Shown piece by piece: positions 2,173 through 49,751 of a DNA stretch of 59,880 bases. The translations under genes and the position numbers were made by a program. Position 1 is the stretch's first letter. Each line of letters opens with the position of its first letter. Location: the IMG/VR virus record IMGVR_UViG_3300035211_000056, positions 1 to 59,880 of that record; one strand, 5' to 3'. Below the pieces are notes generated by a model. It was not told the origin of the DNA, did not search any database, and saw only the letters and a list, made by a program, of their open reading frames with translations. Source of the DNA: a virus. Taxonomy: Duplodnaviria > Caudoviricetes.

Positions 2173-3337
2173 TTAATATTTTAACGCTCCCTTTAATAAA
2201 TCCCGGGTCATACGGCTGATTTAAATAAAATAAATCATCGTATTTATCAATGTCTCCGTAATTATCATATGCAAGCAACAAGATACAAGTCGGCTGTACC
2301 GTTGTTGTTGTCACGTCTGCAAGGTCAAGGCTATCAAGATATGCTAATGTATTTGTCCTTAATGTATCAAGTTCAGCAATTACATCATTATCAAGGTCCT
2401 GCTTAATGTCTTCATATTGATCTTCTATTTCTGCCCTGGCAACCGCAAGCTCATCATCATTTGCAAATTCAATCTGTGATATAGTACCGTATGCCATAGC
2501 AAGAGCATTTACGTTTATGCAATCGTTTATTGCCTTAAATGTTTTTTTACGTTCAATATGGGCCATTGTGTCTTCATTAATTGTATCGTCTTCAGCACCA
2601 AAACTAAACATAGATTTCCATATTTCTAATTGAGATTTATTATCACTTGATGCAAAACTAAATGTATTAAATAGATTTTTTAAAGCAAGTCCTAATGTTG
2701 CTGGAGCTACAGCATAACTTGCAATTTTATCTTGAAAATCAAGTATCCCCTCATTAAGTTCATTTGCCTTATCCGCAACTTTGTATGTCAAAGATGCTGC
2801 ATTATCAAAAGTATCAAATACATCATTTAATTTAGTAGCCGTAAGTATTGCATTATCGCTGAAAACTGCGGTTAGTGAGTCAAAACCATCCTCAATCACG
2901 CCAAGAACTGTATCAATACCTCTTAAAATCAAAGGCTTTGTATTTTCGGAAGTATCAGGATATGACGGGTTGCTGGCCTGTTGAAATGTTACAGTAAATC
3001 CGGAAATACCGAATCTTTTATCCATTTCTTTTAATTCGCAACTTATTGCAGCACATAGTATTTCACCCTGGTACGGGTGTACCAGTTTTCCAAGACTAGG
3101 TTCTTCAAGCTTTTGTTTAAGCCTGTTTCTTTTTTCAAGTAGTGATGGTCCCTTAACATATAAATCAATTTGAAACTGATCTTCTGCCAAACCTAAAAAT
3201 TCAACCTCAGTCCTGTTTGAATCCGGGTATTGATGCGGAACTGTTTTCTGCCCGAACCTGATACTTGAGTTTTCTATCAGTACAGAAACTCCCTTATATT
3301 TTGCTTGTCTTAGTCTTCCTAATAGTGCTAAATCCAT
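2165..3337 (-). CDS. Mu gpN-like 'DNA circularisation' tail protein
   Basis: N-terminal A.YKGV, HQYP...VE.LG and GKLVHPYQG motifs; C-terminal LAYDNYGD..P.F. Confidence 0.85.
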   Translation of the reverse strand: MDLALLGRLRQAKYKGVSVLIENSSIRFGQKTVPHQYPDSNRTEVEFLGLAEDQFQIDLYVKGPSLLEKRNRLKQKLEEPSLGKLVHPYQGEILCAAISCELKEMDKRFGISGFTVTFQQASNPSYPDTSENTKPLILRGIDTVLGVIEDGFDSLTAVFSDNAILTATKLNDVFDTFDNAASLTYKVADKANELNEGILDFQDKIASYAVAPATLGLALKNLFNTFSFASSDNKSQLEIWKSMFSFGAEDDTINEDTMAHIERKKTFKAINDCINVNALAMAYGTISQIEFANDDELAVARAEIEDQYEDIKQDLDNDVIAELDTLRTNTLAYLDSLDLADVTTTTVQPTCILLLAYDNYGDIDKYDDLFYLNQPYDPGFIKGSVKILSE

Positions 3338-3351
3338 ATTAAAACCTCTAG

Positions 3352-6139: not shown

Positions 6140-7720
6140 TTAAAAAGATGATGAAAAATTAGTTTTCAACGTGCTTAATACTTCTCTAAGCTGTGTAACA
6201 ATAGGCCATTCGTTACTTGATGTTATACGACCAAGCACAAGACTTATTGTTACGCTCATGTTATCAGTAAAATATTTTGATGCTTCTTTGCTTTTTGGTA
6301 CAAGGGCATAATCCCCAAGTGTTTCAAAATAATCAAGCATCTTAGAAACAAAATCAGCCTCGTCAGTCATGGAATAACCACGCACAAGGTTGCCGCTTGT
6401 TAATCTGCTCTGTGCATAATCTGATTTAATATTATTGAAAATATACTCTGCGCAAACAGACATTGTGTCTACTGTGTTTAAGTATTTCCATGTTGTGTCA
6501 ACGTTTCCGGCTGCATCTGTTTTGTATGTAGTCCTTATCTTGTCAAGGATAACCTGATTTCCTGCGTTGTTATTTCCCATTATACAACCGCCGGCAGTAA
6601 ATAAATCTGATTTTTCAGTATCCGTCCAACCTCTACCATCTGGTTGTATTGGAGATCCGAAAATAGGAGTATTTGCATAAGGTAATGAAGCAATATGCAT
6701 ACCGCCATAACCATCTAAATCACCTCTTATGCTTGCAGGGGTGAAATTAACAATATTTGCATCAGTCATCAATCTTACTGCACGAGTAGCAGCAACACGA
6801 GCCGCAGCAACAAAGTCAAGTTCAAGGTCTTCACCTCCATCGAAATTATCCTCTGCAACTTCTTTATTGCAAAGTATAACAAGATTTTTAGAATTTAAAG
6901 CATCTAGTACAGAAACCAAATCTGCTTTTGCGTCAGTTGCTTTTAGTATAGCAACACCGTCTTTGATTGCATTTGCAACATTAAATCTTGGATCAAGAAA
7001 ATCAGTTGCTAAGTCTGTTCCGTATTCATACGGATATGTCATTGTCTGATATCTTATTTTACTTACAACATCAAGCAGACTTGTTAATGTCGGGTCTGTT
7101 GCCCCTGCAGAAAAAGGAGTTAACGCAACAACCAAAGATCCAAAAACATAATCATCGCCTGATTTTGCAAGTCCGTCTATTTTTATAGTCGCTGTATTAA
7201 AAATTGTACCGCCGTTGTTAGCTTCTATATCAACGGAGCCGTCTTCATTATCTGTAACAGTAACAGGTAATTCAAGCAAATCAACAGCCGCAGCAAAATC
7301 AGCAGCCGTGTCTGTGGATGGGTCATCGTCAACTGCAATAGTAAGTTCAACGTCTTCACCCATTATGTTAAAATTCAAAGTTCCGTTTTTATCTGCGGTT
7401 CCTGAAAAAGTAACAGTTGCTTTTGATTTAGTAGCTCCGCCAGCGTCTTCCAAAGGAATAACGTCAACCCTCGGTAAATTAGGGCTTGGAGCCTGGTCAA
7501 ACACATCAAATACCGCATTAAGAGCAGCACCCAAAGCAGATTGATCATCAAACTTATCGTCTATGTCTGATCTTTCAATATCGGTATAAAGTGTTTTTTC
7601 AATTGCCGAACCTGTAGAAAGTTTCTGACCTATAACAAGTAATTTCTGAGTATCAACACCTGAAGGTAGGCTTGCAGATTGTTTTGTTATTGAAACATAT
7701 GGATTTTTTGCCTGTGACAT
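6140..7720 (-). CDS. Tail sheath protein (Mu gpL-like)
   Basis: LLVIGQKL, GATDP, and TTYKTDAAGNVD..WKYLNTVDT motifs. Confidence 0.9.
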   Translation of the reverse strand: MSQAKNPYVSITKQSASLPSGVDTQKLLVIGQKLSTGSAIEKTLYTDIERSDIDDKFDDQSALGAALNAVFDVFDQAPSPNLPRVDVIPLEDAGGATKSKATVTFSGTADKNGTLNFNIMGEDVELTIAVDDDPSTDTAADFAAAVDLLELPVTVTDNEDGSVDIEANNGGTIFNTATIKIDGLAKSGDDYVFGSLVVALTPFSAGATDPTLTSLLDVVSKIRYQTMTYPYEYGTDLATDFLDPRFNVANAIKDGVAILKATDAKADLVSVLDALNSKNLVILCNKEVAEDNFDGGEDLELDFVAAARVAATRAVRLMTDANIVNFTPASIRGDLDGYGGMHIASLPYANTPIFGSPIQPDGRGWTDTEKSDLFTAGGCIMGNNNAGNQVILDKIRTTYKTDAAGNVDTTWKYLNTVDTMSVCAEYIFNNIKSDYAQSRLTSGNLVRGYSMTDEADFVSKMLDYFETLGDYALVPKSKEASKYFTDNMSVTISLVLGRITSSNEWPIVTQLREVLSTLKTNFSSSF

Positions 7721-7774
7721 AATTAACCCTCCATTTTTCCGTGGGAGGATTAATTATTATGCTTAATTATAACA
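7720..7774 (-). promoter_or_regulatory. Sheath promoter TGTTATAAT and RBS-sequestering leader hairpin
   Basis: Promoter at 7774-7766. Leader TAATTAATCCTCC-CACGGAAAAAT-GGAGGGTTAATTA forms a 13-bp stem covering the SD and the A of ATG. Confidence 0.75.
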
Positions 7775-7809
7775 CAATTTATTAAATCAACACAATTTTT
7801 TTAATATAT

Positions 7810-8901
7810 TTATGAAAAGTCCTCATCTTCATTAAGTGTACCATTTACCTGCTTTTTGACTTCTTCGTAATCGTCAAATTCCATTTTAATACCTATCTGG
7901 AAATCCCTAAAAGCTCTTGTTTCACCTATTGGCACGGAATCAGCATTTGTTATATTAAATACATTTTCAAAATCAAATCTGTGGACATAATATGCCTTTG
8001 TGTATGATTCTCCGGCATCACCAGCGAATACAGCACAATATTTTATCCCTTCATCCAAACCGCTATCAAATTCAGCACCATGCAGACATTTTAATATATA
8101 CTTCCTTAATGTATAAATATAGTTTATGGCAGATCTAGGGGTGGTTTCATCCTGAGTAGGTATTAAAACATAGACGCTGAAATCTTCAACGCATTCGGTT
8201 TGCAAATCTTCTTTTGATTGCTTTTTATTTTTTGCATCAGAAAAAATATGACGGTCCGCACTTGCCAGGACATTACCCATGACAACAAATATTGTATACT
8301 TGGTTAATGGTTCTGACTGATTTTCAATATAGTCCATAATATCCTGTTCAGAGCTTAATCCGTCAATTCTTATATTGTTTAATACGGTCCCGGATAAAGA
8401 ATAAGGTTCAAGTTCATATTCAACATCATATTTTACCGTATTATCATCATTATCAATTGTTACCTCTTTTCTGCCAGAATATCCTCTTGATTCCAATAAA
8501 TAAAAAGTCCCGGTCGGCTCAACCGCAGACTGAATTGTTATTTTGTCATTTTCTGGAACTTCTATTAACGTTTTTTCTCCTGAGAAATCACCAACAAAAG
8601 TAACTGTTTTAGTTATGCCGTTTTCCTGTTCAAGTTCTGAATATGTCTGATCATGATCTTCTTCTGTTGTTAAAATCCATTCGTTATCATTATCTCCTGC
8701 CGTAACATCTGTTATTTCAAGTTTGCAATAAATACCTTTTATATTTGCATGAGTATCAGAAACTAAGTCCGCATCAACGGTTAATATAACCTCGTTCCCG
8801 TCAATAACGGCATTAGTAACATTAACAACGTCGCTGAAATCTTCTGTATATTTCGGCAGTTGTGATTGTATTTGAGCGATAATGTCTTCTAATTTTGCGA
8901 T
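7810..8901 (-). CDS. Neck/tail-terminator-like protein, extended to a probable ATC start (363 aa)
   Basis: Frame is open for 135 codons upstream of the TTG at 8496 with no ATG/GTG/TTG; SD GAGGT lies 5 nt before ATC; YYVHRFDFE C-terminal motif; precedes sheath. Confidence 0.7.
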   Translation of the reverse strand: MAKLEDIIAQIQSQLPKYTEDFSDVVNVTNAVIDGNEVILTVDADLVSDTHANIKGIYCKLEITDVTAGDNDNEWILTTEEDHDQTYSELEQENGITKTVTFVGDFSGEKTLIEVPENDKITIQSAVEPTGTFYLLESRGYSGRKEVTIDNDDNTVKYDVEYELEPYSLSGTVLNNIRIDGLSSEQDIMDYIENQSEPLTKYTIFVVMGNVLASADRHIFSDAKNKKQSKEDLQTECVEDFSVYVLIPTQDETTPRSAINYIYTLRKYILKCLHGAEFDSGLDEGIKYCAVFAGDAGESYTKAYYVHRFDFENVFNITNADSVPIGETRAFRDFQIGIKMEFDDYEEVKKQVNGTLNEDEDFS

Positions 8902-8914
8902 ATCACACCTCTTT

Positions 8915-9388
8915 TTATTTACCCTTAATTTGTCTATTAATTTCCTTTATGACAATATTTCTAAATTGCTGATGCATCCTGTTTACAGTATACCCAACTA
9001 ATTTACGTTTTGCCATTTTTCTTGTACCTTCTTCAAGATATTTTGCATAAGTTGTATCAATTCCTTTACTCGGATTTTTTATACCGAAAATCATCTTCTT
9101 ATAAGTAAAAACTTTAAAAGCAACTGCACCCCTTAATGTTCCAAAGATCCTTTGTGGATATTCCCCGGGTGCAGATGAAGTTCTTGTAAAAGAACCGCCG
9201 CCAGGTCTTTTGTGTGTGTATACCTTTCCTGATCGTCCTCCGAATTTTAATCCTTTCTGTAATGATTTTCTCATTACTCTTGCACCTTCAGTGTATCCTC
9301 TTTCTATTGCGTGTCTAACTTCCTGACCCATCATGTCTAACTTAAGAAATACTTTTTTATTTCCAGAGTCCTGTTTTATTCTTATCAT
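8915..9388 (-). CDS. HK97 gp10-like neck/tail completion protein
   Basis: SAPGEYP...G.L and YAKYLEEGTRKMAKR motifs. Confidence 0.85.
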   Translation of the reverse strand: MIRIKQDSGNKKVFLKLDMMGQEVRHAIERGYTEGARVMRKSLQKGLKFGGRSGKVYTHKRPGGGSFTRTSSAPGEYPQRIFGTLRGAVAFKVFTYKKMIFGIKNPSKGIDTTYAKYLEEGTRKMAKRKLVGYTVNRMHQQFRNIVIKEINRQIKGK

Positions 9389-9404
9389 GATTTTATCACT
9401 CCAT

Positions 9405-9785
9405 TCATGATTTAGACCCGTCCTTTGTATCGCTTCCGGTTTCAGTGCAATAAAGCAACATAAATTGACCTTCGTTTGCTGTTTCTATTGATTCTATTTT
9501 AAATCTATTATTATTAAACTTAACCCAATATTCACTTGTTAATCCTGATATCGTACGTATTTTAAATATATGAGTAATAGCACCATCAACAACAATGCCG
9601 GAAAATTTATCAATCCCGGATCGTGTTTCTATATCAGCCCATACAGTCCATACAGTTTCAAAACTATAAACAGATTGAGTATTTTTATATTCAACAAGTC
9701 TTTTTTGAATTTCTATTCTATTTGACATTGACCCGATGCATAATTTCTTTTTTTTAGAAGATATATATTTACTTCTGCAAGCCAT
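9405..9785 (-). CDS. Head-tail adaptor/head closure (SPP1 gp16-like)
   Basis: G.M..RI.IQ, TVWADI, THIFKIR and RFKIESI motifs. Confidence 0.85.
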   Translation of the reverse strand: MACRSKYISSKKKKLCIGSMSNRIEIQKRLVEYKNTQSVYSFETVWTVWADIETRSGIDKFSGIVVDGAITHIFKIRTISGLTSEYWVKFNNNRFKIESIETANEGQFMLLYCTETGSDTKDGSKS

Positions 9786-9786
9786 A

Positions 9787-10377
9787 TCAGTAATGACATC
9801 CAGTATTTATTATTCGGTTATTTTTATATATCAACTGACAAGTTAAGGGCAATAACATCTTTTCAAATTCATTTACGTCGACACAATCGCCTCTGTTTTC
9901 GTATAAATATCCAACATGTGTTTTTATTGCCATTAAAATATCAGCCGGTATGTCGGCTGCGGTAGTACCGTATCCTGCAACAAAAGTAATTTTAATTGCT
10001 TCGGGATGAATATCATAATCTGATTCTGGTAAATCAATTCCATCAATTTTTCCAAAAATACCGCCTTGAGCTAAATCATATTCTGTTGACGCAAGTAAAA
10101 CATAAGAACCATCGACCATATATTCTATCTTTATCAAAGAACTATAGGGACCTCTGCGTAATGTTAAATCTTGATGAATAGAATCCCTGCAATTTTCATA
10201 AGTAGCATTTAATAAATCGCGGTTCATTTGTTTTTCAGCCGTCTTAATAGCTGCGGTTATCATTGCCGCAATTAATGTATCTTCTGTAGACTGATCGACA
10301 CGTAAAAACAATTTCATATCAGATGTTGATATTAACGTAGCTGATGTTTTAGAAATTTGTTTATAGGTATCGTTCAT
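9787..10377 (-). CDS. Head-tail connector (gp6/phiE125 gp8-like)
   Basis: K.FLRVD..ED.LI..I.AA, F.AGYG...IP.DI..AI and YENRG motifs. Confidence 0.9.
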   Translation of the reverse strand: MNDTYKQISKTSATLISTSDMKLFLRVDQSTEDTLIAAMITAAIKTAEKQMNRDLLNATYENCRDSIHQDLTLRRGPYSSLIKIEYMVDGSYVLLASTEYDLAQGGIFGKIDGIDLPESDYDIHPEAIKITFVAGYGTTAADIPADILMAIKTHVGYLYENRGDCVDVNEFEKMLLPLTCQLIYKNNRIINTGCHY

Positions 10378-10395
10378 AATTCCGTCCTTAAACTC

Positions 10396-10476
10396 GAGAG
10401 CCGGAGTTACCTTACATCCCGAGTTTTTTGTAAAGTATTCCGGCTCTCAATATCTCAATCCTCCCACGGATTAAGA
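10396..10476 (-). ncRNA. Putative two-hairpin regulatory RNA in the capsid-operon 3' intergenic region
   Basis: Hairpin 1: UCUUAAUCC-GUGGGA-GGAUUGAGA. Hairpin 2: GAGAGCCGGA..UUUACA-AAAAACUCGGGA-UGUAAG..UCCGGCUCUC. Both loops are complementary to late-gene leaders. Confidence 0.6.
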
Positions 10477-10483
10477 AACTTTT

Positions 10484-10882
10484 TTATTCTGCGGTGTAAG
10501 TAGGCTGATGTGCAGCTCTACCTTTATAAGCAATACCAGAAGCGATAACATTTACGCTACCAGCTCCGGCAACTTTTGCCCTGACATATCTTTTGTTACC
10601 AACGTAACCGATATGTGCTGTTTGTGATCCTGTGCTTGAAATAACCAACGCACCTATAAGCTGAGAAGAATCAACTGTGTCTTCATCACTCATGTCTGAT
10701 TCATCACCTTCATAGATTGCGATAGTTATCGACGTTGCTGTTGTTATTTCAAAATTGAAACAAAAATCAAGTGCTTCATAACCTTTAGTATCAATAGTTT
10801 CACCAGTATGTGTATTGGTGTCCGCAATTTCCTGAGAATCTAAAGCACTATCAATGTCGGCTTTTGTCCTTATATCGTACAT
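10484..10882 (-). CDS. Capsid decoration/cement-like protein
   Basis: Directly after the major capsid gene; IDTKGY, D.SD and GY.G.KRYVR motifs. Confidence 0.65.
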   Translation of the reverse strand: MYDIRTKADIDSALDSQEIADTNTHTGETIDTKGYEALDFCFNFEITTATSITIAIYEGDESDMSDEDTVDSSQLIGALVISSTGSQTAHIGYVGNKRYVRAKVAGAGSVNVIASGIAYKGRAAHQPTYTAE

Positions 10883-10914
10883 AATTTATCTAACCTCCAT
10901 ATCCCTATTTTTTA

Positions 10915-12258
10915 TTAGGCTGCTGTTTTTAGCACTTTAAATGCTTCGGCTATGGCCACCTGACCGTTATTCCATTGTTTCCATGTGAATTCTACTATTC
11001 CGGTTCTCTTGCTTGTGTAATCATCTCTGATTAGAGAGATTCCAACAGCGTCAAGGATGTAATAACCATAGAAGAAATCACCTACCATAACAGAAAGAGA
11101 GCTCCCTGCAATATCTGCCATGTTTGGCATAATAACAAAAGGCTTACCTGCAATCTGGTTAGGCATTGTTTCACCGCCTGGTCTCCACAAGAAGTTACCG
11201 GCAGTATCTTTTTCAACCCTTAATGTATAAAGGGTGCTTTGGTTCATTGCAAAACGAGCGTTTGGAAGATATCCAGATTTAGGATATTTAAGAAGACCGA
11301 TAACGTCAGCAAGTCCAACAACACCACTTGATGCTGAATCGACTGTGTTATCTGTTATATCAGAATTAACCAAAATTCCTTCAGGCTGTTTCTTTCCAGT
11401 TCCTAAAAGAAAGCAATAGTTTTCTTTCTGTGCAAAACCCATTGCTGCATCTTTTGTAAGCTGAGAAATCATGTCAGTCATTGAGAAGTTTAGAGAATCC
11501 CAGGTTATTTTACTTGTCAAACCTAGCCTGTAGGCTGTAAGTGTTTCAAACCTGTAAGTTGATTCGTCTTCCTGATCTGATTCAGATTCACCCTCGTAAT
11601 ATGCAACTGGCAAAGTAGTCCTGATTGCAACGCTAAGAGACTTCACCTTTGACGCAAACTTTCTGCACAATGCACGTACGGGATCGATTTCTTCAACTTC
11701 TTCCATTATCTGGTTGTACACAGAGTCAGGGACAAGAAAACCACCGTCTGCATTACTGTCAGTCCTGAGATATTTTTTATCTGTAGGAATCTGCTGGTTG
11801 TTAAGAATTTCTCCGTTATTCATCTTTACGATTTCTTCCGGTTCTATTCCTTTCATTACATAGTCTTGCAGACCTTCGTATTCTTTACCAAAATGTTTTT
11901 TGTTTTGTTTTGCATCAGATGGCTTCATGTTGCTAAGATTAGCAATTTCTATTTCCATATCCTTGATGCGTTTTAGGTTTTCCTCACCGTTGTTATCCTT
12001 TATTTCCTTGATTGATTCTTCAAGATGTCGGATTTTTGTTTCGTGAGCGTCTTTTTCTGTTTGAATTTTCTGCAACGTCTTGTCTTTTTCATCAAGCGAT
12101 GCCTCTATTTTTTTTACCTGCTCTTTTGCTTCACTTGATAATGAATTAACCTTATCCTCATAAGTTTTTTTATCATTTTCAGTATTTTTGAGTTTATCCT
12201 GAAGATCCGCAAGTATTTTGTTCGATTCTTCCAATTGTTTTTTAAGTTCTTCGTTCAT
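10915..12258 (-). CDS. Major capsid protein, HK97 fold with long coiled-coil delta domain
   Basis: DGGFLVP, F.LGTG..QPEGI, KD..GNFLW.P and GDF..GY motifs; start moved to the ATG at 12258 behind SD GGAGGT. Confidence 0.95.
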   Translation of the reverse strand: MNEELKKQLEESNKILADLQDKLKNTENDKKTYEDKVNSLSSEAKEQVKKIEASLDEKDKTLQKIQTEKDAHETKIRHLEESIKEIKDNNGEENLKRIKDMEIEIANLSNMKPSDAKQNKKHFGKEYEGLQDYVMKGIEPEEIVKMNNGEILNNQQIPTDKKYLRTDSNADGGFLVPDSVYNQIMEEVEEIDPVRALCRKFASKVKSLSVAIRTTLPVAYYEGESESDQEDESTYRFETLTAYRLGLTSKITWDSLNFSMTDMISQLTKDAAMGFAQKENYCFLLGTGKKQPEGILVNSDITDNTVDSASSGVVGLADVIGLLKYPKSGYLPNARFAMNQSTLYTLRVEKDTAGNFLWRPGGETMPNQIAGKPFVIMPNMADIAGSSLSVMVGDFFYGYYILDAVGISLIRDDYTSKRTGIVEFTWKQWNNGQVAIAEAFKVLKTAA

Positions 12259-13348
12259 TAGACGAGACCTCCGATCCAAGTTTTTTTATTCTTTCAAAAA
12301 ACTCATTAAGACCGGCATCTCGCAGGCTGGCTTCTTGATCTTTTTCGTATCCGGTTTGTCCTTCCCGAACAAACTTTTTAATCTTTGATATAATTATATT
12401 ACACTTCTTTGTGGAAAGTCCACAAGTTTTTAAATAATTATCAATTTCTCTTAAATTCGTTATGTCTTCAAGCGATTTTTCAAAAGGGGAAACTATATCC
12501 TCATCATTAAATTCAGAACGCATTTTCGCATAGTATTTATTTATGTTGGTTATTACACCTTTTTTTTCTGAATCAGGAATATTAACTCCGCCTCTTGCTC
12601 CTGACATTGCGCCGGCCGCAGCAAATATAGCACGTGGAACAGCAACAAGTTTTCCATCTATAACATCGGCAATTGGTAGTTTATAAGACCCGAATTTGTC
12701 ATCACTTTCTTTATCATACCAAAGAAAAGCTTTTTTATATTTTGAACTTGGAGAATCTTCTGAATCAGTAAATGATCGTACCCTGCCCAGGGCAGAAGAT
12801 TTATCCCATTCTCTTTCTCTGTCTGCAAGTGGCAAATTCTGGTAAGGCACAACTGATTTCATATCTGTTATCATTGCTTCAGGATTTGCAGGAATAGTAA
12901 CAAGTGAAATTTCCCATAATGTTAATTTCTGCAAATAGCAAATGCCGGAATTTTCATCATAGTTATATTTTTCTATTGAATAACCTATAGACATAGACTT
13001 AACAGATCCGATTTTCATTTGAGGAACTACTCGTCCCCTGACAAAATCATCATCAAGAGGCATTTTTCCTTCTACATATAATCCTTTGTCATCTTCATAA
13101 CATGAAACAAATATACCGATAGGTTCTCCCCAGTTATGCTGCCACAGAAGCATAGGCATGAATTCTTTTAAAGAATCAAGAAACGCACCCCTGACAACAA
13201 CGTCGTCAACACGGTCTAGATTTCCAAAAGTAGAACCATATCCTTTAAATGTAAAATATTTAGTACCGTTTTCTTTTGTTTCTTTTGTCTCTATTATAGA
13301 AAAAGGTACTTTTATATGTTTTACTTCTGCGGATTTTCTATCCTTCAT
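12242..13348 (-). CDS. HK97-family prohead protease with extra C-terminal domain
   Basis: F.GYGSTFGNLD..D, MLLWQH...PIG, MSIGY and LWEISLVT.PAN motifs, followed by a YKLP.AD..DG.L.AVPRA..GARGG domain. Confidence 0.9.
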   Translation of the reverse strand: MKDRKSAEVKHIKVPFSIIETKETKENGTKYFTFKGYGSTFGNLDRVDDVVVRGAFLDSLKEFMPMLLWQHNWGEPIGIFVSCYEDDKGLYVEGKMPLDDDFVRGRVVPQMKIGSVKSMSIGYSIEKYNYDENSGICYLQKLTLWEISLVTIPANPEAMITDMKSVVPYQNLPLADREREWDKSSALGRVRSFTDSEDSPSSKYKKAFLWYDKESDDKFGSYKLPIADVIDGKLVAVPRAIFAAAGAMSGARGGVNIPDSEKKGVITNINKYYAKMRSEFNDEDIVSPFEKSLEDITNLREIDNYLKTCGLSTKKCNIIISKIKKFVREGQTGYEKDQEASLRDAGLNEFFERIKKLGSEVSSNERRT

Positions 13349-49300: not shown

Positions 49301-49732
49301 TTAAAAACCTCCAAAAGTTTTTCTTACATTAAAATTAGGACATGTTTTTTTATCATCTAAATCACAGTGTCCACAAAGTATAAAGTCTCCGTACTTAAGC
49401 CGGAGTTCTTTTATTAAAGTCATCAAGGACCCTATCTGTTTATGAGTAAATTCATCAAGTCCTGCAAGGCAAATACTTATACTACAATCATTATAACCTA
49501 TGCAATGCGCACCTTGAACATTATCATGTCTGCCTTTTTTTATTTCTCCGGATCTTTCAATGTAGTAATGATAACCGATATCAGACCAGCCGTTGCCTCT
49601 TGTATCGTAATTTCCCCATTTAATTTCTTCCTCTGGTGATGCTGTATGTAAATGCTTGACAGCATCAAAAGATAATTGTTCTGGCTTATTAGTTGCCGAA
49701 CAATGTATTACTGCATATTTAATCTTATTCAT
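49301..49732 (-). CDS. Endolysin, T7-lysozyme-like N-acetylmuramoyl-L-alanine amidase
   Basis: IHCSAT, GWSDIGYHY, GAHC.GYN, GH.D and KTCPNF motifs. Confidence 0.92.
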   Translation of the reverse strand: MNKIKYAVIHCSATNKPEQLSFDAVKHLHTASPEEEIKWGNYDTRGNGWSDIGYHYYIERSGEIKKGRHDNVQGAHCIGYNDCSISICLAGLDEFTHKQIGSLMTLIKELRLKYGDFILCGHCDLDDKKTCPNFNVRKTFGGF

Positions 49733-49742
49733 AATTAACGTA

Positions 49743-49751
49743 ATTATAACA
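49743..49751 (-). promoter_or_regulatory. Extended -10 promoter for the endolysin, near-leaderless
   Basis: TGTTATAAT 10 nt before ATG; no SD. Confidence 0.55.

What the first reader, a model, noticed from the sequence alone, without database searches (positions are those of the whole stretch)
7720..7756. Sheath mRNA leader is a locked hairpin with a 14-nt perfect key 2.7 kb away
Seen: the leader forms a 13-bp stem burying GGAGG up to the start codon. Its anti-SD arm plus loop (AAUCCUCCCACGGA, 7751-7738) is perfectly complementary to UCCGUGGGAGGAUU (10470-10457), extendable to 16 bp with one G-U. Both are on minus-strand RNA, and the loops CAC/GUG could nucleate by kissing. Inference: a natural toehold-like switch in which pairing frees the RBS and ties sheath synthesis to capsid-operon expression.
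Basis: partly seen in the sequence, partly recalled or inferred. Interest (0 to 1): 0.85.

Follow-up and report, generated by a model that had tools for sequence, protein, structure and literature searches.

The report
Sheath mRNA hairpin lock with distant complement
A phage tail-sheath mRNA starts with a conserved hairpin that hides its ribosome-binding site, and a matching sequence after the capsid genes may open it, but that pairing has not been shown to occur.

Summary
The sheath gene (6140-7720, minus strand) has its own TGnTATAAT promoter. Its leader folds into a 14-bp hairpin (7757-7719, about -16.8 kcal/mol) that buries GGAGG and the AU of the AUG. AAUCCUCCCACGGA (7751-7738) is exactly complementary to UCCGUGGGAGGAUU (10470-10457), extendable to 16 bp with one G-U.

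New facts:
- The complement lies 14 nt after the stop of the 132-aa ORF that follows the capsid gene. It sits inside its own hairpin, just upstream of a large terminator-like stem, so it looks like a 3'UTR element.
- The lock hairpin recurs, with changed sequence, in the two nearest relatives whose DNA I could read. It is absent from all more distant ones.
- In the only relative that holds both sites (L003), the homologous 3'UTR site is again the best duplex partner of the diverged leader. Cognate pairs beat non-cognate pairs by 7.5-18 kcal/mol.
- By my hand alignment, the 14 pairs show two compensatory changes, one co-deletion and three breaks.

Cautions:
- The net gain from pairing is small (-7.9 and -5.3 kcal/mol) because both partners are hairpins.
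- The freed SD partly re-pairs in the predicted complex.
- There is only one informative relative and no RNA data.

Verdict: the lock is real. A capsid-3'UTR to sheath-5'UTR RNA pairing is plausible (about 0.4) but unproven.

The parts
7766..7774 (-). Extended -10 promoter element TGTTATAAT just upstream of the sheath leader. A -35-like TTGTGT lies at 7794-7789, 17 nt upstream. The predicted start of transcription is about 7760-7758.
   Evidence: TGNTATAAT is enriched, 21 sites against 7.9 expected; a TGnTATAAT or GGTATAAT box sits at the same place in every relative with 58% or more sheath identity. The -35 element and the start site are my reading, not measured.
7719..7757 (-). Leader hairpin ('lock'). 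5' arm 7757-7744 (AUAAUUAAUCCUCC), loop 7743-7733 (CACGGAAAAAU), 3' arm 7732-7719 (GGAGGGUUAAUUAU), which contains the SD GGAGG (7732-7728) and the first two bases of the start codon.
   Evidence: -16.8 kcal/mol, z -3.3; it is the only CCTCC..GGAGG pair within 33 nt in the window (0.10 expected); analogous hairpins in L003 and L010.
7738..7759 (-). Leader segment complementary to the upstream site. The exact 14 nt are 7751-7738, 16 bp with one G-U reach 7753, and a further 5 bp (UAAUA with UAUUG, one G-U) reach 7759.
   Evidence: duplex -31.2 kcal/mol.
6140..7720 (-). Tail sheath gene (526 aa).
   Evidence: phrog_165 tail sheath, E 1.9e-41; homologues named 'phage tail sheath gpL-like' by JGI. 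No Pfam hit at E<=0.01.
10453..10476 (-). Hairpin that holds the complementary 'key'. Stem UCUUAAUCC/GGAUUGAGA, loop GUGGGA. The exact 14-nt complement is 10470-10457. The hairpin starts 7 nt after the TAA stop (10486-10484) of the 132-aa ORF.
   Evidence: -12.1 kcal/mol for the hairpin alone.
10394..10450 (-). Large G+C-rich, terminator-like hairpin immediately after the key hairpin. In the window it is followed only by GAGUUUAAGG (weak U-tract). The homologous stems in relatives carry U-runs.
   Evidence: the whole intergenic region folds at -41.5 kcal/mol, z -5.35. Searches show the relatives.
10484..10882 (-). 132-aa ORF of unknown function downstream of the capsid gene. The key lies in its 3' untranslated region.
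   Evidence: ORF; phrog_5707, unknown function.
10915..12279 (-). Major capsid protein gene.
   Evidence: PF05065, E 5.8e-44.
9787..10377 (-). Head-tail connector gene, the first gene downstream of the key and terminator-like region.
   Evidence: PF05135, E 8.9e-07.

Best explanation
The sheath mRNA, made from its own host-type promoter, begins with a 5'-terminal hairpin that occludes the Shine-Dalgarno sequence and the start codon. The 3' untranslated end of the capsid/132-aa-ORF transcript carries the exact complement of the hairpin's anti-SD arm plus the start of its loop. That complement sits in a short hairpin just before the terminator-like stem. The two RNAs may be separate molecules, or the two ends of a 2.7-kb loop on a read-through transcript. 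When they pair, the leader's 5' arm is captured and the lock is remodelled, which raises sheath translation and/or protects the sheath mRNA's 5' end. Sheath output would then follow the abundance of capsid mRNA. Shown here: both hairpins, the complementarity, its rarity, conservation of the lock, and cognate-specific complementarity in one relative. Inferred: the transcript ends, that pairing happens in the cell, its direction and its effect. One further inference: ribosomes terminating 7 nt upstream of the key hairpin would loosen it and expose the key.
For: 1. The lock is real and conserved.: -16.8 kcal/mol, z -3.3. L003 (69% sheath identity) has a different-sequence SD-burying hairpin, AAAAUCCCCA../..UGGGGGUUUU (-24.2 kcal/mol, 0 of 200 shuffles as good). 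L010 (72%) has AAAAAUCCUCCC/GGGAGGAUUUUU (-17.1). So 3 of 3 phages with 69% or more sheath identity whose leader I could read carry it.
2. The lock is absent elsewhere: the 62% clade (L006/7/8/11, identical leaders), the 58% clade (L012/L167) and 31 of 31 distinct leaders of more distant relatives (MFE -1.4 to -10.5 kcal/mol, no anti-SD arm by inspection).
3. The complementarity is rare.
4. In L003 the homologous site after the 130-aa ORF (about 3321-3345) is the top duplex partner of its own leader arm across the L003 and L164 loci, which overlap and together span about 18 kb of the contig: -24.2 against -20.0 for the next best (mean -7.8, sd 3.1).
5. Cognate pairs are stronger than non-cognate ones: window x window -31.2 and L003 x L003 -24.2, against window leader x L003 key -16.7 and L003 leader x window key -13.1.
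6. My hand alignment: leader CCCACGG becomes CCCCAGG while key CCGUGGG becomes CCUGGGG. That is two compensatory pair changes, plus one co-deleted pair.
7. The 13-mer AAUCCUCCCACGG, which includes loop bases not needed for the hairpin, is the longest block shared by the window and L010 leaders.
8. Lock and key co-occur. The 62% clade, which has no lock, has only a terminator plus a new promoter at the homologous site.
9. Pairing is thermodynamically downhill: dimer minus monomers is -7.9 kcal/mol in the window and -5.3 in L003.
10. A precedent exists. The hly 3'UTR pairs with the 5' end of prsA2 mRNA in Listeria (PMC8722363, abstract read).
Against: 1. Only one relative holds both sites, so covariation rests on n=1. 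In that comparison 3 of the 14 pairs are broken, and only 8 contiguous bp remain in L003.
2. Both partners are stable hairpins. The net gain is small, which I estimate as a Kd in the micromolar range.
3. In a scan of all 80-nt segments by net cofold gain, the site is not among the top 8 of 2981 (mean -4.8, sd 2.2). The better-scoring segments pair with the unstructured coding part and leave the lock closed.
4. Single-stranded nucleation is short: a 3-nt loop-loop contact, 6 nt of leader loop, and a 3-nt 5' tail. In L003 the complementary leader bases are all inside a -21 to -24 kcal/mol stem.
5. In the predicted complex, GGAGG re-pairs with the key's freed 5' flank and with codons 7-8.
6. Part of the match comes from SD mimicry. 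GGAGGAUUAA-type ribosome sites give 10-nt matches at 2 of the other 25 GGAGG sites.
Confidence: 0.4

Rival explanations
1. The leader hairpin works alone. It would be a 5'-terminal stabiliser and translational attenuator that sets sheath output, opened by standby ribosomes or by an unidentified protein, as I recall for Com acting on Mu mom. The match to 10470-10457 would then be a by-product. The upstream site is an orphan SD-like element or a 3'-end stabilising hairpin that resembles the leader's own SD arm, so it is complementary to the anti-SD arm by transitivity and by shared ancestry.
For: The hairpin is conserved on its own and starts within a few nt of the predicted transcript start in all three phages (my reading). 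SD-plus-spacer mimicry alone gives 10-nt matches elsewhere. The L010 leader's own 3' arm, CGGGAGGAUU, nearly equals the window's key. The net pairing energy is unexceptional. L167 has a short hairpin of opposite polarity (C-rich loop) at the homologous place without any lock, so a hairpin there need not be a key.
Against: It does not explain the 6 nt beyond the SD (UCCGUG with CACGGA), nor the conservation of those loop bases in L010. It also does not explain why the homologous site is again the best partner after both sides diverged in L003, nor the cognate over non-cognate energy gaps. By my arithmetic from the base composition, a 14-nt match at any of 26 GGAGG sites has probability about 4e-4.
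Confidence: 0.33
2. The two sites are one double-stranded DNA element (AATCC-N6-GGATT type) present in opposite orientations and bound by a phage or host DNA-binding protein. One copy would be an operator just downstream of the sheath promoter. Co-evolution would then reflect the protein's specificity and not RNA pairing.
For: The upstream site is a DNA palindrome with an asymmetric centre (TTAATCC GTGGGA GGATT), and the leader carries the same stem half with the centre inverted (TTAATCC TCCCAC GGA). The leader copy lies about +3 to +22 from the predicted start, a classic operator position. Orientation-independent identity is what a duplex-DNA reader would see.
Against: There are only two copies in 59.9 kb, and a third appears only at 3 mismatches, which is chance level. 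The upstream copy is not near any promoter in the window. In L003 what is shared is the asymmetric centre plus one flank (TCCCCAGG, 8 bp) and not the palindromic half-sites. Extensions of the match in both phages use G-U pairs, which are mismatches in DNA.
Confidence: 0.08
3. The pairing is real but has a different purpose. One option is that it forms a long-range duplex of about 21 bp on read-through transcripts, which RNase III or another nuclease cuts to separate capsid, connector and sheath mRNAs of different stability. The other option is that the leader arm acts on the upstream site to modulate termination or read-through at the 10394-10450 stem.
For: The extended duplex is 5+16 bp in the window and 5+8+5 bp in L003, close to two helical turns. 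The key lies directly against a terminator-like stem. DsrA-rpoS pairing is reported to create an RNase III site (PMC2831331, start of abstract seen in the listing).
Against: No alternative antiterminator fold was found by inspection. The duplex is interrupted and short for RNase III. No RNA data are available. The SD-burying design of the leader points to translation as the controlled step.
Confidence: 0.1

Closest known systems
hly 3'UTR - prsA2 5'UTR mRNA-mRNA interaction in Listeria monocytogenes (PMC8722363; abstract and outline read)
   Same: The 3' untranslated end of one full-length mRNA is complementary to the extreme 5' region of a second mRNA whose product works with the first. This couples their expression without a dedicated sRNA gene.
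   Different: In Listeria the effect is protection from RNase J1, and no SD-burying hairpin is opened. That case is experimentally shown, this one is only predicted. Here both genes are phage structural genes 2.7 kb apart on the same strand and may share a transcript.
Anti-antisense activation of rpoS by DsrA (PMC2831331; only the start of the abstract seen in the listing)
   Same: A leader hairpin blocks ribosome access, and a second RNA pairs with the inhibitory arm and relieves the block.
   Different: DsrA is a dedicated Hfq-dependent sRNA with an accessible seed. Here the activator would be an mRNA 3'UTR whose seed is itself in a hairpin. The chaperone and host are unknown, and the predicted net energy is small.
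Engineered toehold switches
   Same: The logic is the same: a trigger RNA strand-displaces a hairpin that blocks translation initiation.
   Different: As I recall them, toehold switches keep the RBS in the loop, the AUG in a bulge, and a single-stranded 5' toehold of 12 nt or more. Here the RBS and AUG are in the stem, and the free nucleotides are a 5' tail of about 3 nt and a 6-nt loop segment.
Hairpin-locked late genes of phages (recalled from memory: T4 e lysozyme and soc, where late transcripts start inside the hairpin; Mu mom opened by the Com protein). The T4 review PMC3014915 was seen in the listing only.
   Same: A phage late gene whose ribosome-binding site is buried in a leader hairpin and needs a phage-timed event to open.
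   Different: Here the predicted promoter leaves the whole 5' arm in the transcript, unlike the T4 arrangement. The candidate opener is an RNA and not a protein.
Long-distance interaction between the MS2 coat and replicase regions (recalled from memory)
   Same: Pairing at a distance between an upstream highly translated region and a downstream ribosome-binding region, with upstream ribosomes modulating it.
   Different: As I recall it, the MS2 pairing represses and is melted by translation. Here the pairing would activate, and the upstream partner lies just beyond a stop codon and is not inside a coding region.

Membership tests
SD-sequestering 5' leader hairpin (translational lock) | The stem includes the Shine-Dalgarno sequence and/or the start codon. 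| tested here: met
   7732-7719 (GGAGGGUUAAUUAU, including the AU of the AUG) pairs with 7757-7744.
SD-sequestering 5' leader hairpin (translational lock) | More stable than composition-matched sequence. | tested here: met
   z -3.34, 1 of 200 shuffles as good. (L003): z -4.21, 0 of 200.
SD-sequestering 5' leader hairpin (translational lock) | Structure kept while sequence changes in relatives. | tested here: met
   window UCCUCC/GGAGGG, L010 UCCUCCC/GGGAGGA, L003 UCCCCA/UGGGGG. That is 3 of 3 phages with 69% or more sheath identity. The automatic alignment misaligned the loops and counted only 1 of 10 pairs as compensatory, so the comparison is by individual folds.
SD-sequestering 5' leader hairpin (translational lock) | Lowers translation initiation. 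| not testable with these tools
   Needs a reporter assay or toeprinting.
Trans- or long-range-acting RNA activator (anti-antisense type) | The activator is complementary to the inhibitory (anti-SD) arm. | tested here: met
   14 exact, 16 with one G-U.: -31.2 kcal/mol.
Trans- or long-range-acting RNA activator (anti-antisense type) | The complex is favoured over the two separate folds. | tested here: inconclusive
   -7.9 and -5.3 kcal/mol net, so downhill but weak; not exceptional among all segments by this metric.
Trans- or long-range-acting RNA activator (anti-antisense type) | The SD is accessible in the complex. | tested here: inconclusive
   in the dimer MFE, GGAGG is released from the lock but partly re-paired with weak A/U-rich partners.
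Trans- or long-range-acting RNA activator (anti-antisense type) | Two-sided covariation between the partners. | tested here: inconclusive
   One informative relative (L003). By my hand alignment: 2 compensatory pairs, 1 co-deleted pair, 8 unchanged, 3 broken. One search shows the cognate over non-cognate energies.
Trans- or long-range-acting RNA activator (anti-antisense type) | Both RNAs are present with the required ends. | not testable with these tools
   No RNA data could be laid. The promoter and terminator are predictions.
3'UTR-embedded regulator sharing the mRNA's terminator | The seed lies between the stop codon and an intrinsic terminator. | tested here: inconclusive
   The key starts 14 nt after the TAA and lies just before a long G+C stem. 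The window's stem lacks a good U-tract. L003 has CUUUUCAUU after its stem, and L011 and L167 have clear T-runs.
Engineered-style toehold switch | RBS in the loop, and a long single-stranded 5' toehold (features recalled from memory). | tested here: not met
   the RBS is in the stem, and only about 3 nt at the 5' end and an 11-nt loop are unpaired.
Palindromic DNA operator | The same half-sites are present at each copy, near a promoter. | tested here: not met
   The leader copy has one full half-site (AATCC) and 3 of 5 bases of the other. L003 shares the centre and not the half-sites. The upstream copy has no promoter nearby.
Any curated RNA family (Rfam 15) | A covariance-model match. | tested here: not met
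   nothing in 7000-11000 except one chance hit (E 0.54, 20 bits against a 50-bit threshold) elsewhere.

The most novel reading that the evidence does not exclude
The 3'UTR of the capsid-operon mRNA is a built-in riboregulator. Ribosomes finishing the last head gene loosen its hairpin. The exposed seed then captures the 5' arm of the sheath mRNA's lock, in trans or across a 2.7-kb loop. Tail-sheath synthesis would then be licensed by, and scaled to, ongoing head-protein translation. This would be an RNA-only head-to-tail stoichiometry coupling, with lineage-specific (orthogonal) lock-key pairs in related phages.
Probability: 0.25. Interest if true: 0.8.

Novelty: new variant of a known kind. 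Interest (0 to 1): 0.55.

Why it matters
How tailed phages balance the output of head and tail proteins is mostly explained by promoters, terminators and ribosome-site strength. A conserved lock on the most abundant tail protein, plus a co-varying complement at the 3' end of the head-gene message, would add direct mRNA-to-mRNA cross-talk between assembly modules. I know of no such case for phage structural genes: nothing of the kind appeared in the listings, although that search was limited. The two natural, mutually non-cognate lock-key pairs (window/L010 type and L003 type) would also be ready-made orthogonal parts for a clean swap experiment. If the pairing turns out to be inert, the finding reduces to a conserved SD-burying 5' hairpin on a sheath mRNA. 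That would be useful for annotation but ordinary.

Tried and rejected
- **Close relatives in public phage records.** blastn found none. tblastn found 6 records, all Ralstonia phages at about 22% identity, so not useful.
- **Metagenome and genome scans.** Scans with the two-sequence sheath alignment found nothing. Scans with the 18-sequence alignment gave L010, L011 and L012 and only relatives at 25-32% identity in genomes.
- **DNA-pattern scans of viral contigs** for the key-type and lock-type motifs. They returned 112+ and 36 stretches. None of the stored loci encodes a relative of the sheath, capsid, 132-aa, connector or 228-aa proteins.
- **Connector as a single-protein query**: nothing. 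The connector alignment gave 80 loci, used only to show that more distant leaders lack a lock.
- **Net-energy scan of all 80-nt segments**. Its unfavourable result is reported in the Against line.
- **RNAalifold on three leaders**: the loops were misaligned, so I did not use it.
- **Small ORF started by the orphan GGGAGG.** A 12-14 codon frame exists in the window, but L003 has no start codon there. Rejected.
- **Rfam**: no family.
- **Sequencing runs**: no RNA holder listed.
- **Laid contigs**. Only the probable source run X1 covers 10457-10470. Run X3 holds a relative with 24 differing letters and 3 gaps over 339 letters that covers the leader. It has a 2-nt deletion at 7756 and a 1-nt insertion behind 7720, both at the base of the stem. 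The substitution table was truncated (171 rows not shown), so I can say nothing about the 14-mer there. No cover is no finding.
- **Supplementary files** of papers were not opened. They do not bear on the claims here.
- **RNA thermometer reading of the leader:** considered and not pursued, as there is no evidence either way.
Full report
**What the window is**

The window is a complete 59,880-bp virus record from IMG/VR with 32% G+C. Around the finding, the minus strand carries a head-to-tail structural module:
- prohead protease (12242-13348)
- major capsid protein (10915-12279; PF05065)
- a 132-aa ORF (10484-10882; phrog_5707, function unknown)
- a 106-nt intergenic region
- head-tail connector (9787-10377; PF05135)
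- head completion protein (9405-9785)
- tail completion/Neck1-like protein (8915-9388)
- a 228-aa ORF (7810-8496)
- an 89-nt gap
- the 526-aa tail sheath (6140-7720; phrog_165, E 1.9e-41)
- further downstream, the tape measure protein

**Checking the observation**

The leader folds into a 14-bp stem: 7757-7744 pairs with 7732-7719, with one U-G pair. The loop is the 11-nt CACGGAAAAAU. The stem buries GGAGG (7732-7728) and the first two bases of the AUG. It folds at -16.8 kcal/mol with z = -3.3. It is the only CCTCC...GGAGG pair within 33 nt in the whole window, where 0.10 is expected.

The 14-mer at 7751-7738 is the exact complement of 10470-10457 on the same strand, and 16 bp form with one G-U.

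Three tests argue against chance:
- The window holds 92 exact 14-mer inverted pairs. This one has 8 G+C and every other has 5 or fewer. By my arithmetic from the base composition, about 0.05 such pairs with 8 or more G+C are expected in the window.
- Of the 26 other GGAGG sites on the minus strand, 23 match the leader arm over 5-7 nt, two over 10 nt (they share the common GGAGGAUUAA ribosome-site form), and only this one over 14 nt.
- As a duplex partner of the first 27 nt of the predicted transcript, it scores -31.2 kcal/mol. The next best of 7458 positions scores -18.1 (mean -5.8, sd 2.6).

- The complement is not free. It lies in its own hairpin (UCUUAAUCC-GUGGGA-GGAUUGAGA, 10476-10453, -12.1 kcal/mol), which starts 7 nt after the stop codon of the 132-aa ORF. 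A 57-nt G+C-rich stem (10450-10394) follows directly. The whole intergenic region folds at -41.5 kcal/mol with z = -5.35. This is the layout of an mRNA 3' end: stop codon, short hairpin, terminator-like stem.
- The sheath gene has its own promoter. TGTTATAAT (7774-7766) belongs to a motif class enriched in this genome, with 21 sites against 7.9 expected. An equivalent box sits at the same place in every relative with 58% or more sheath identity. A start about 7 nt downstream of the -10 box is my inference. It would put the hairpin within about 3 nt of the mRNA's 5' end and leave the 5' arm inside the transcript.
- At the DNA level the two sites share the same stem half with the 6-nt centre inverted (TTAATCC-GTGGGA-GGATT against TTAATCC-TCCCAC-GGA). 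This raises the rival reading of one double-stranded element in two orientations.

**Relatives**

Public phage records hold nothing close. A protein search found sheath homologues at 94, 80, 76, 72, 72 and 69% identity and lower.

Through pattern-based scans I obtained DNA for:
- L003 (69% identity, both sites)
- L010 (72%, a 2.5-kb contig with the leader only)
- L006/7/8/11 (62%, with identical leaders)
- L012/L167 (58%)
- L004/L005 (33-36%)
- 31 further distinct leaders from more distant loci

The lock appears in 3 of 3 phages at 69% or more identity. Its sequence changes but its structure is kept:
- window: UCCUCC/GGAGGG
- L010: AAAAAUCCUCCC/GGGAGGAUUUUU (-17.1 kcal/mol)
- L003: AAAAUCCCCA.../...UGGGGGUUUU (-24.2 kcal/mol, 0 of 200 shuffles as good)

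It is absent from the 62% and 58% clades and from all 31 distant leaders. The lock is therefore a real element specific to this clade.

**Does the complement travel with the lock?**

In L003 the homologous region after the 130-aa ORF reads ...CUUUACCUGGGGAGGUUGAGAUA..., followed by a stem with a U-rich tail. Its exact match to the L003 leader is only 8 nt (CCUGGGGA with UCCCCAGG). Even so, with flanking pairs it is the best duplex partner of the L003 leader arm anywhere in the L003 and L164 loci, which overlap and together span about 18 kb of that contig: -24.2 against -20.0 kcal/mol (mean -7.8, sd 3.1).

Cross-combinations are much weaker:

| Leader | Key | Duplex (kcal/mol) |
|---|---|---|
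| window | window | -31.2 |
| L003 | L003 | -24.2 |
| window | L003 | -16.7 |
| L003 | window | -13.1 |
| L010 | window | -27.6 |

I aligned the keys by hand on the shared GGGAGG(A)UUGAGAUA. Of the 14 pairs, 8 are unchanged, 2 change on both sides and stay paired (G-C to U-A and U-A to G-C), 1 is deleted on both sides, and 3 are broken.

The L010 leader shares the 13-mer AAUCCUCCCACGG with the window. This block includes loop bases that its own hairpin does not use, and it is the longest conserved block in the promoter-leader region.

The 62% clade has no lock, and at the homologous place it has only a terminator followed by a new TGATATAAT promoter. L167 (58% clade) has a short hairpin there with a C-rich loop, which is the opposite polarity. 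A hairpin at that spot therefore need not be a key.

**Energetics**

Because both partners are folded, the net gain from pairing is modest: -7.9 kcal/mol in the window and -5.3 in L003. I estimate that this corresponds to a micromolar Kd for separate molecules. It would be more favourable if both sites lie on one read-through transcript.

By net gain, the site does not stand out among all 80-nt segments. The segments that score better bind the open coding part and leave the lock shut.

In the predicted complex the SD leaves the lock but partly re-pairs with A/U-rich neighbours. Unpaired nucleation sites are short.

A ribosome terminating at 10486-10484 would reach the first base pairs of the key hairpin and could expose it. 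This rests on what I know of ribosome footprints and was not tested.

**Weighing the explanations**

The lock itself is secure. I put the probability that the complementarity is selected at roughly 0.6. The evidence for this is its rarity in the window and the rank-1, cognate-specific match in L003. The limit is that only one informative relative exists and three pairs are broken.

Within that, an RNA-level reading is favoured over a DNA operator for four reasons:
- There are only two copies.
- There is no promoter at the upstream copy.
- L003 shares the asymmetric centre and not the half-sites.
- The extensions of the match use G-U pairs.

My committed model, at 0.4, is a capsid-operon 3'UTR pairing with the sheath mRNA 5' leader. 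The pairing would open or remodel the lock, giving translation activation and/or 5'-end protection.

The rivals are:
- The lock acts alone and the match is a by-product of SD mimicry and shared ancestry (0.33).
- The pairing serves processing or termination control (0.1).
- The two sites are a DNA operator (0.08).

**Comparison with known systems**

The closest documented parallel is the Listeria hly 3'UTR pairing with the 5' end of prsA2 mRNA (PMC8722363, abstract read). The closest mechanistic parallel is DsrA opening the rpoS leader (PMC2831331, start of abstract seen in the listing).

It is not an engineered-type toehold switch, because the RBS is in the stem and there is no long toehold. 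No Rfam family matches.

The listings of three literature searches showed no report of a phage head-gene 3'UTR regulating a tail gene. That is a limited search and does not prove absence.

**Verdict**

If true, this is a new variant of known riboregulation, in an unexpected place.

Noticed in passing
window 49730-49751 (minus strand): A second promoter resembles the sheath promoter (82% over 39 nt). Its TGTTATAAT box is followed after only 10 nt by an ATG with no Shine-Dalgarno sequence, so this may be a leaderless mRNA.
   Followed up: partly
whole window: TGNTATAAT extended -10 boxes are enriched: 21 against 7.9 expected, and 0 of 100 shuffles reach 21. Of these, 17 are on the minus strand. 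The phage appears to rely on host-type promoters throughout, including inside the structural module.
   Followed up: partly
window 10394-10450 (minus strand); L003 3337-3380; L011 3420-3450; L167 1555-1595: The stem after the head genes has a clear U-run in the relatives but only GAGUUUAAGG in the window. In the 62% clade a new TGATATAAT promoter follows the terminator, so the connector genes are re-promoted there but must be read through in the window.
   Followed up: partly
L167 1530-1550 and 1593-1606: At the place of the 'key', this 58%-clade phage has a hairpin AAGGA-CUCCCC-UCCUU. Its CUCCUU is complementary to the connector gene's own SD (AAGGAG) about 60 nt downstream, beyond the terminator. 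This could be a different local anti-SD arrangement.
   Followed up: no
window 7723-7734 (minus strand): A three-codon mini-frame AUG GAG GGU UAA lies inside the 3' arm of the lock and overlaps the SD. It has no ribosome site of its own and is not conserved in L010 or L003.
   Followed up: partly
window 7748, 7770 and 7789 (runs X3 and X1): Short contigs from other wetland runs match up to these positions and then continue with unrelated sequence. This suggests mosaic junctions of related phages inside the sheath promoter/leader region.
   Followed up: no
window 7700-7706 (minus strand): Codons 7-8 of the sheath gene (AAAAAAUCCA) can pair with GGGUU of the SD region once the lock's 5' arm is removed (dimer MFE). 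This may be a second, weaker layer of occlusion.
   Followed up: no
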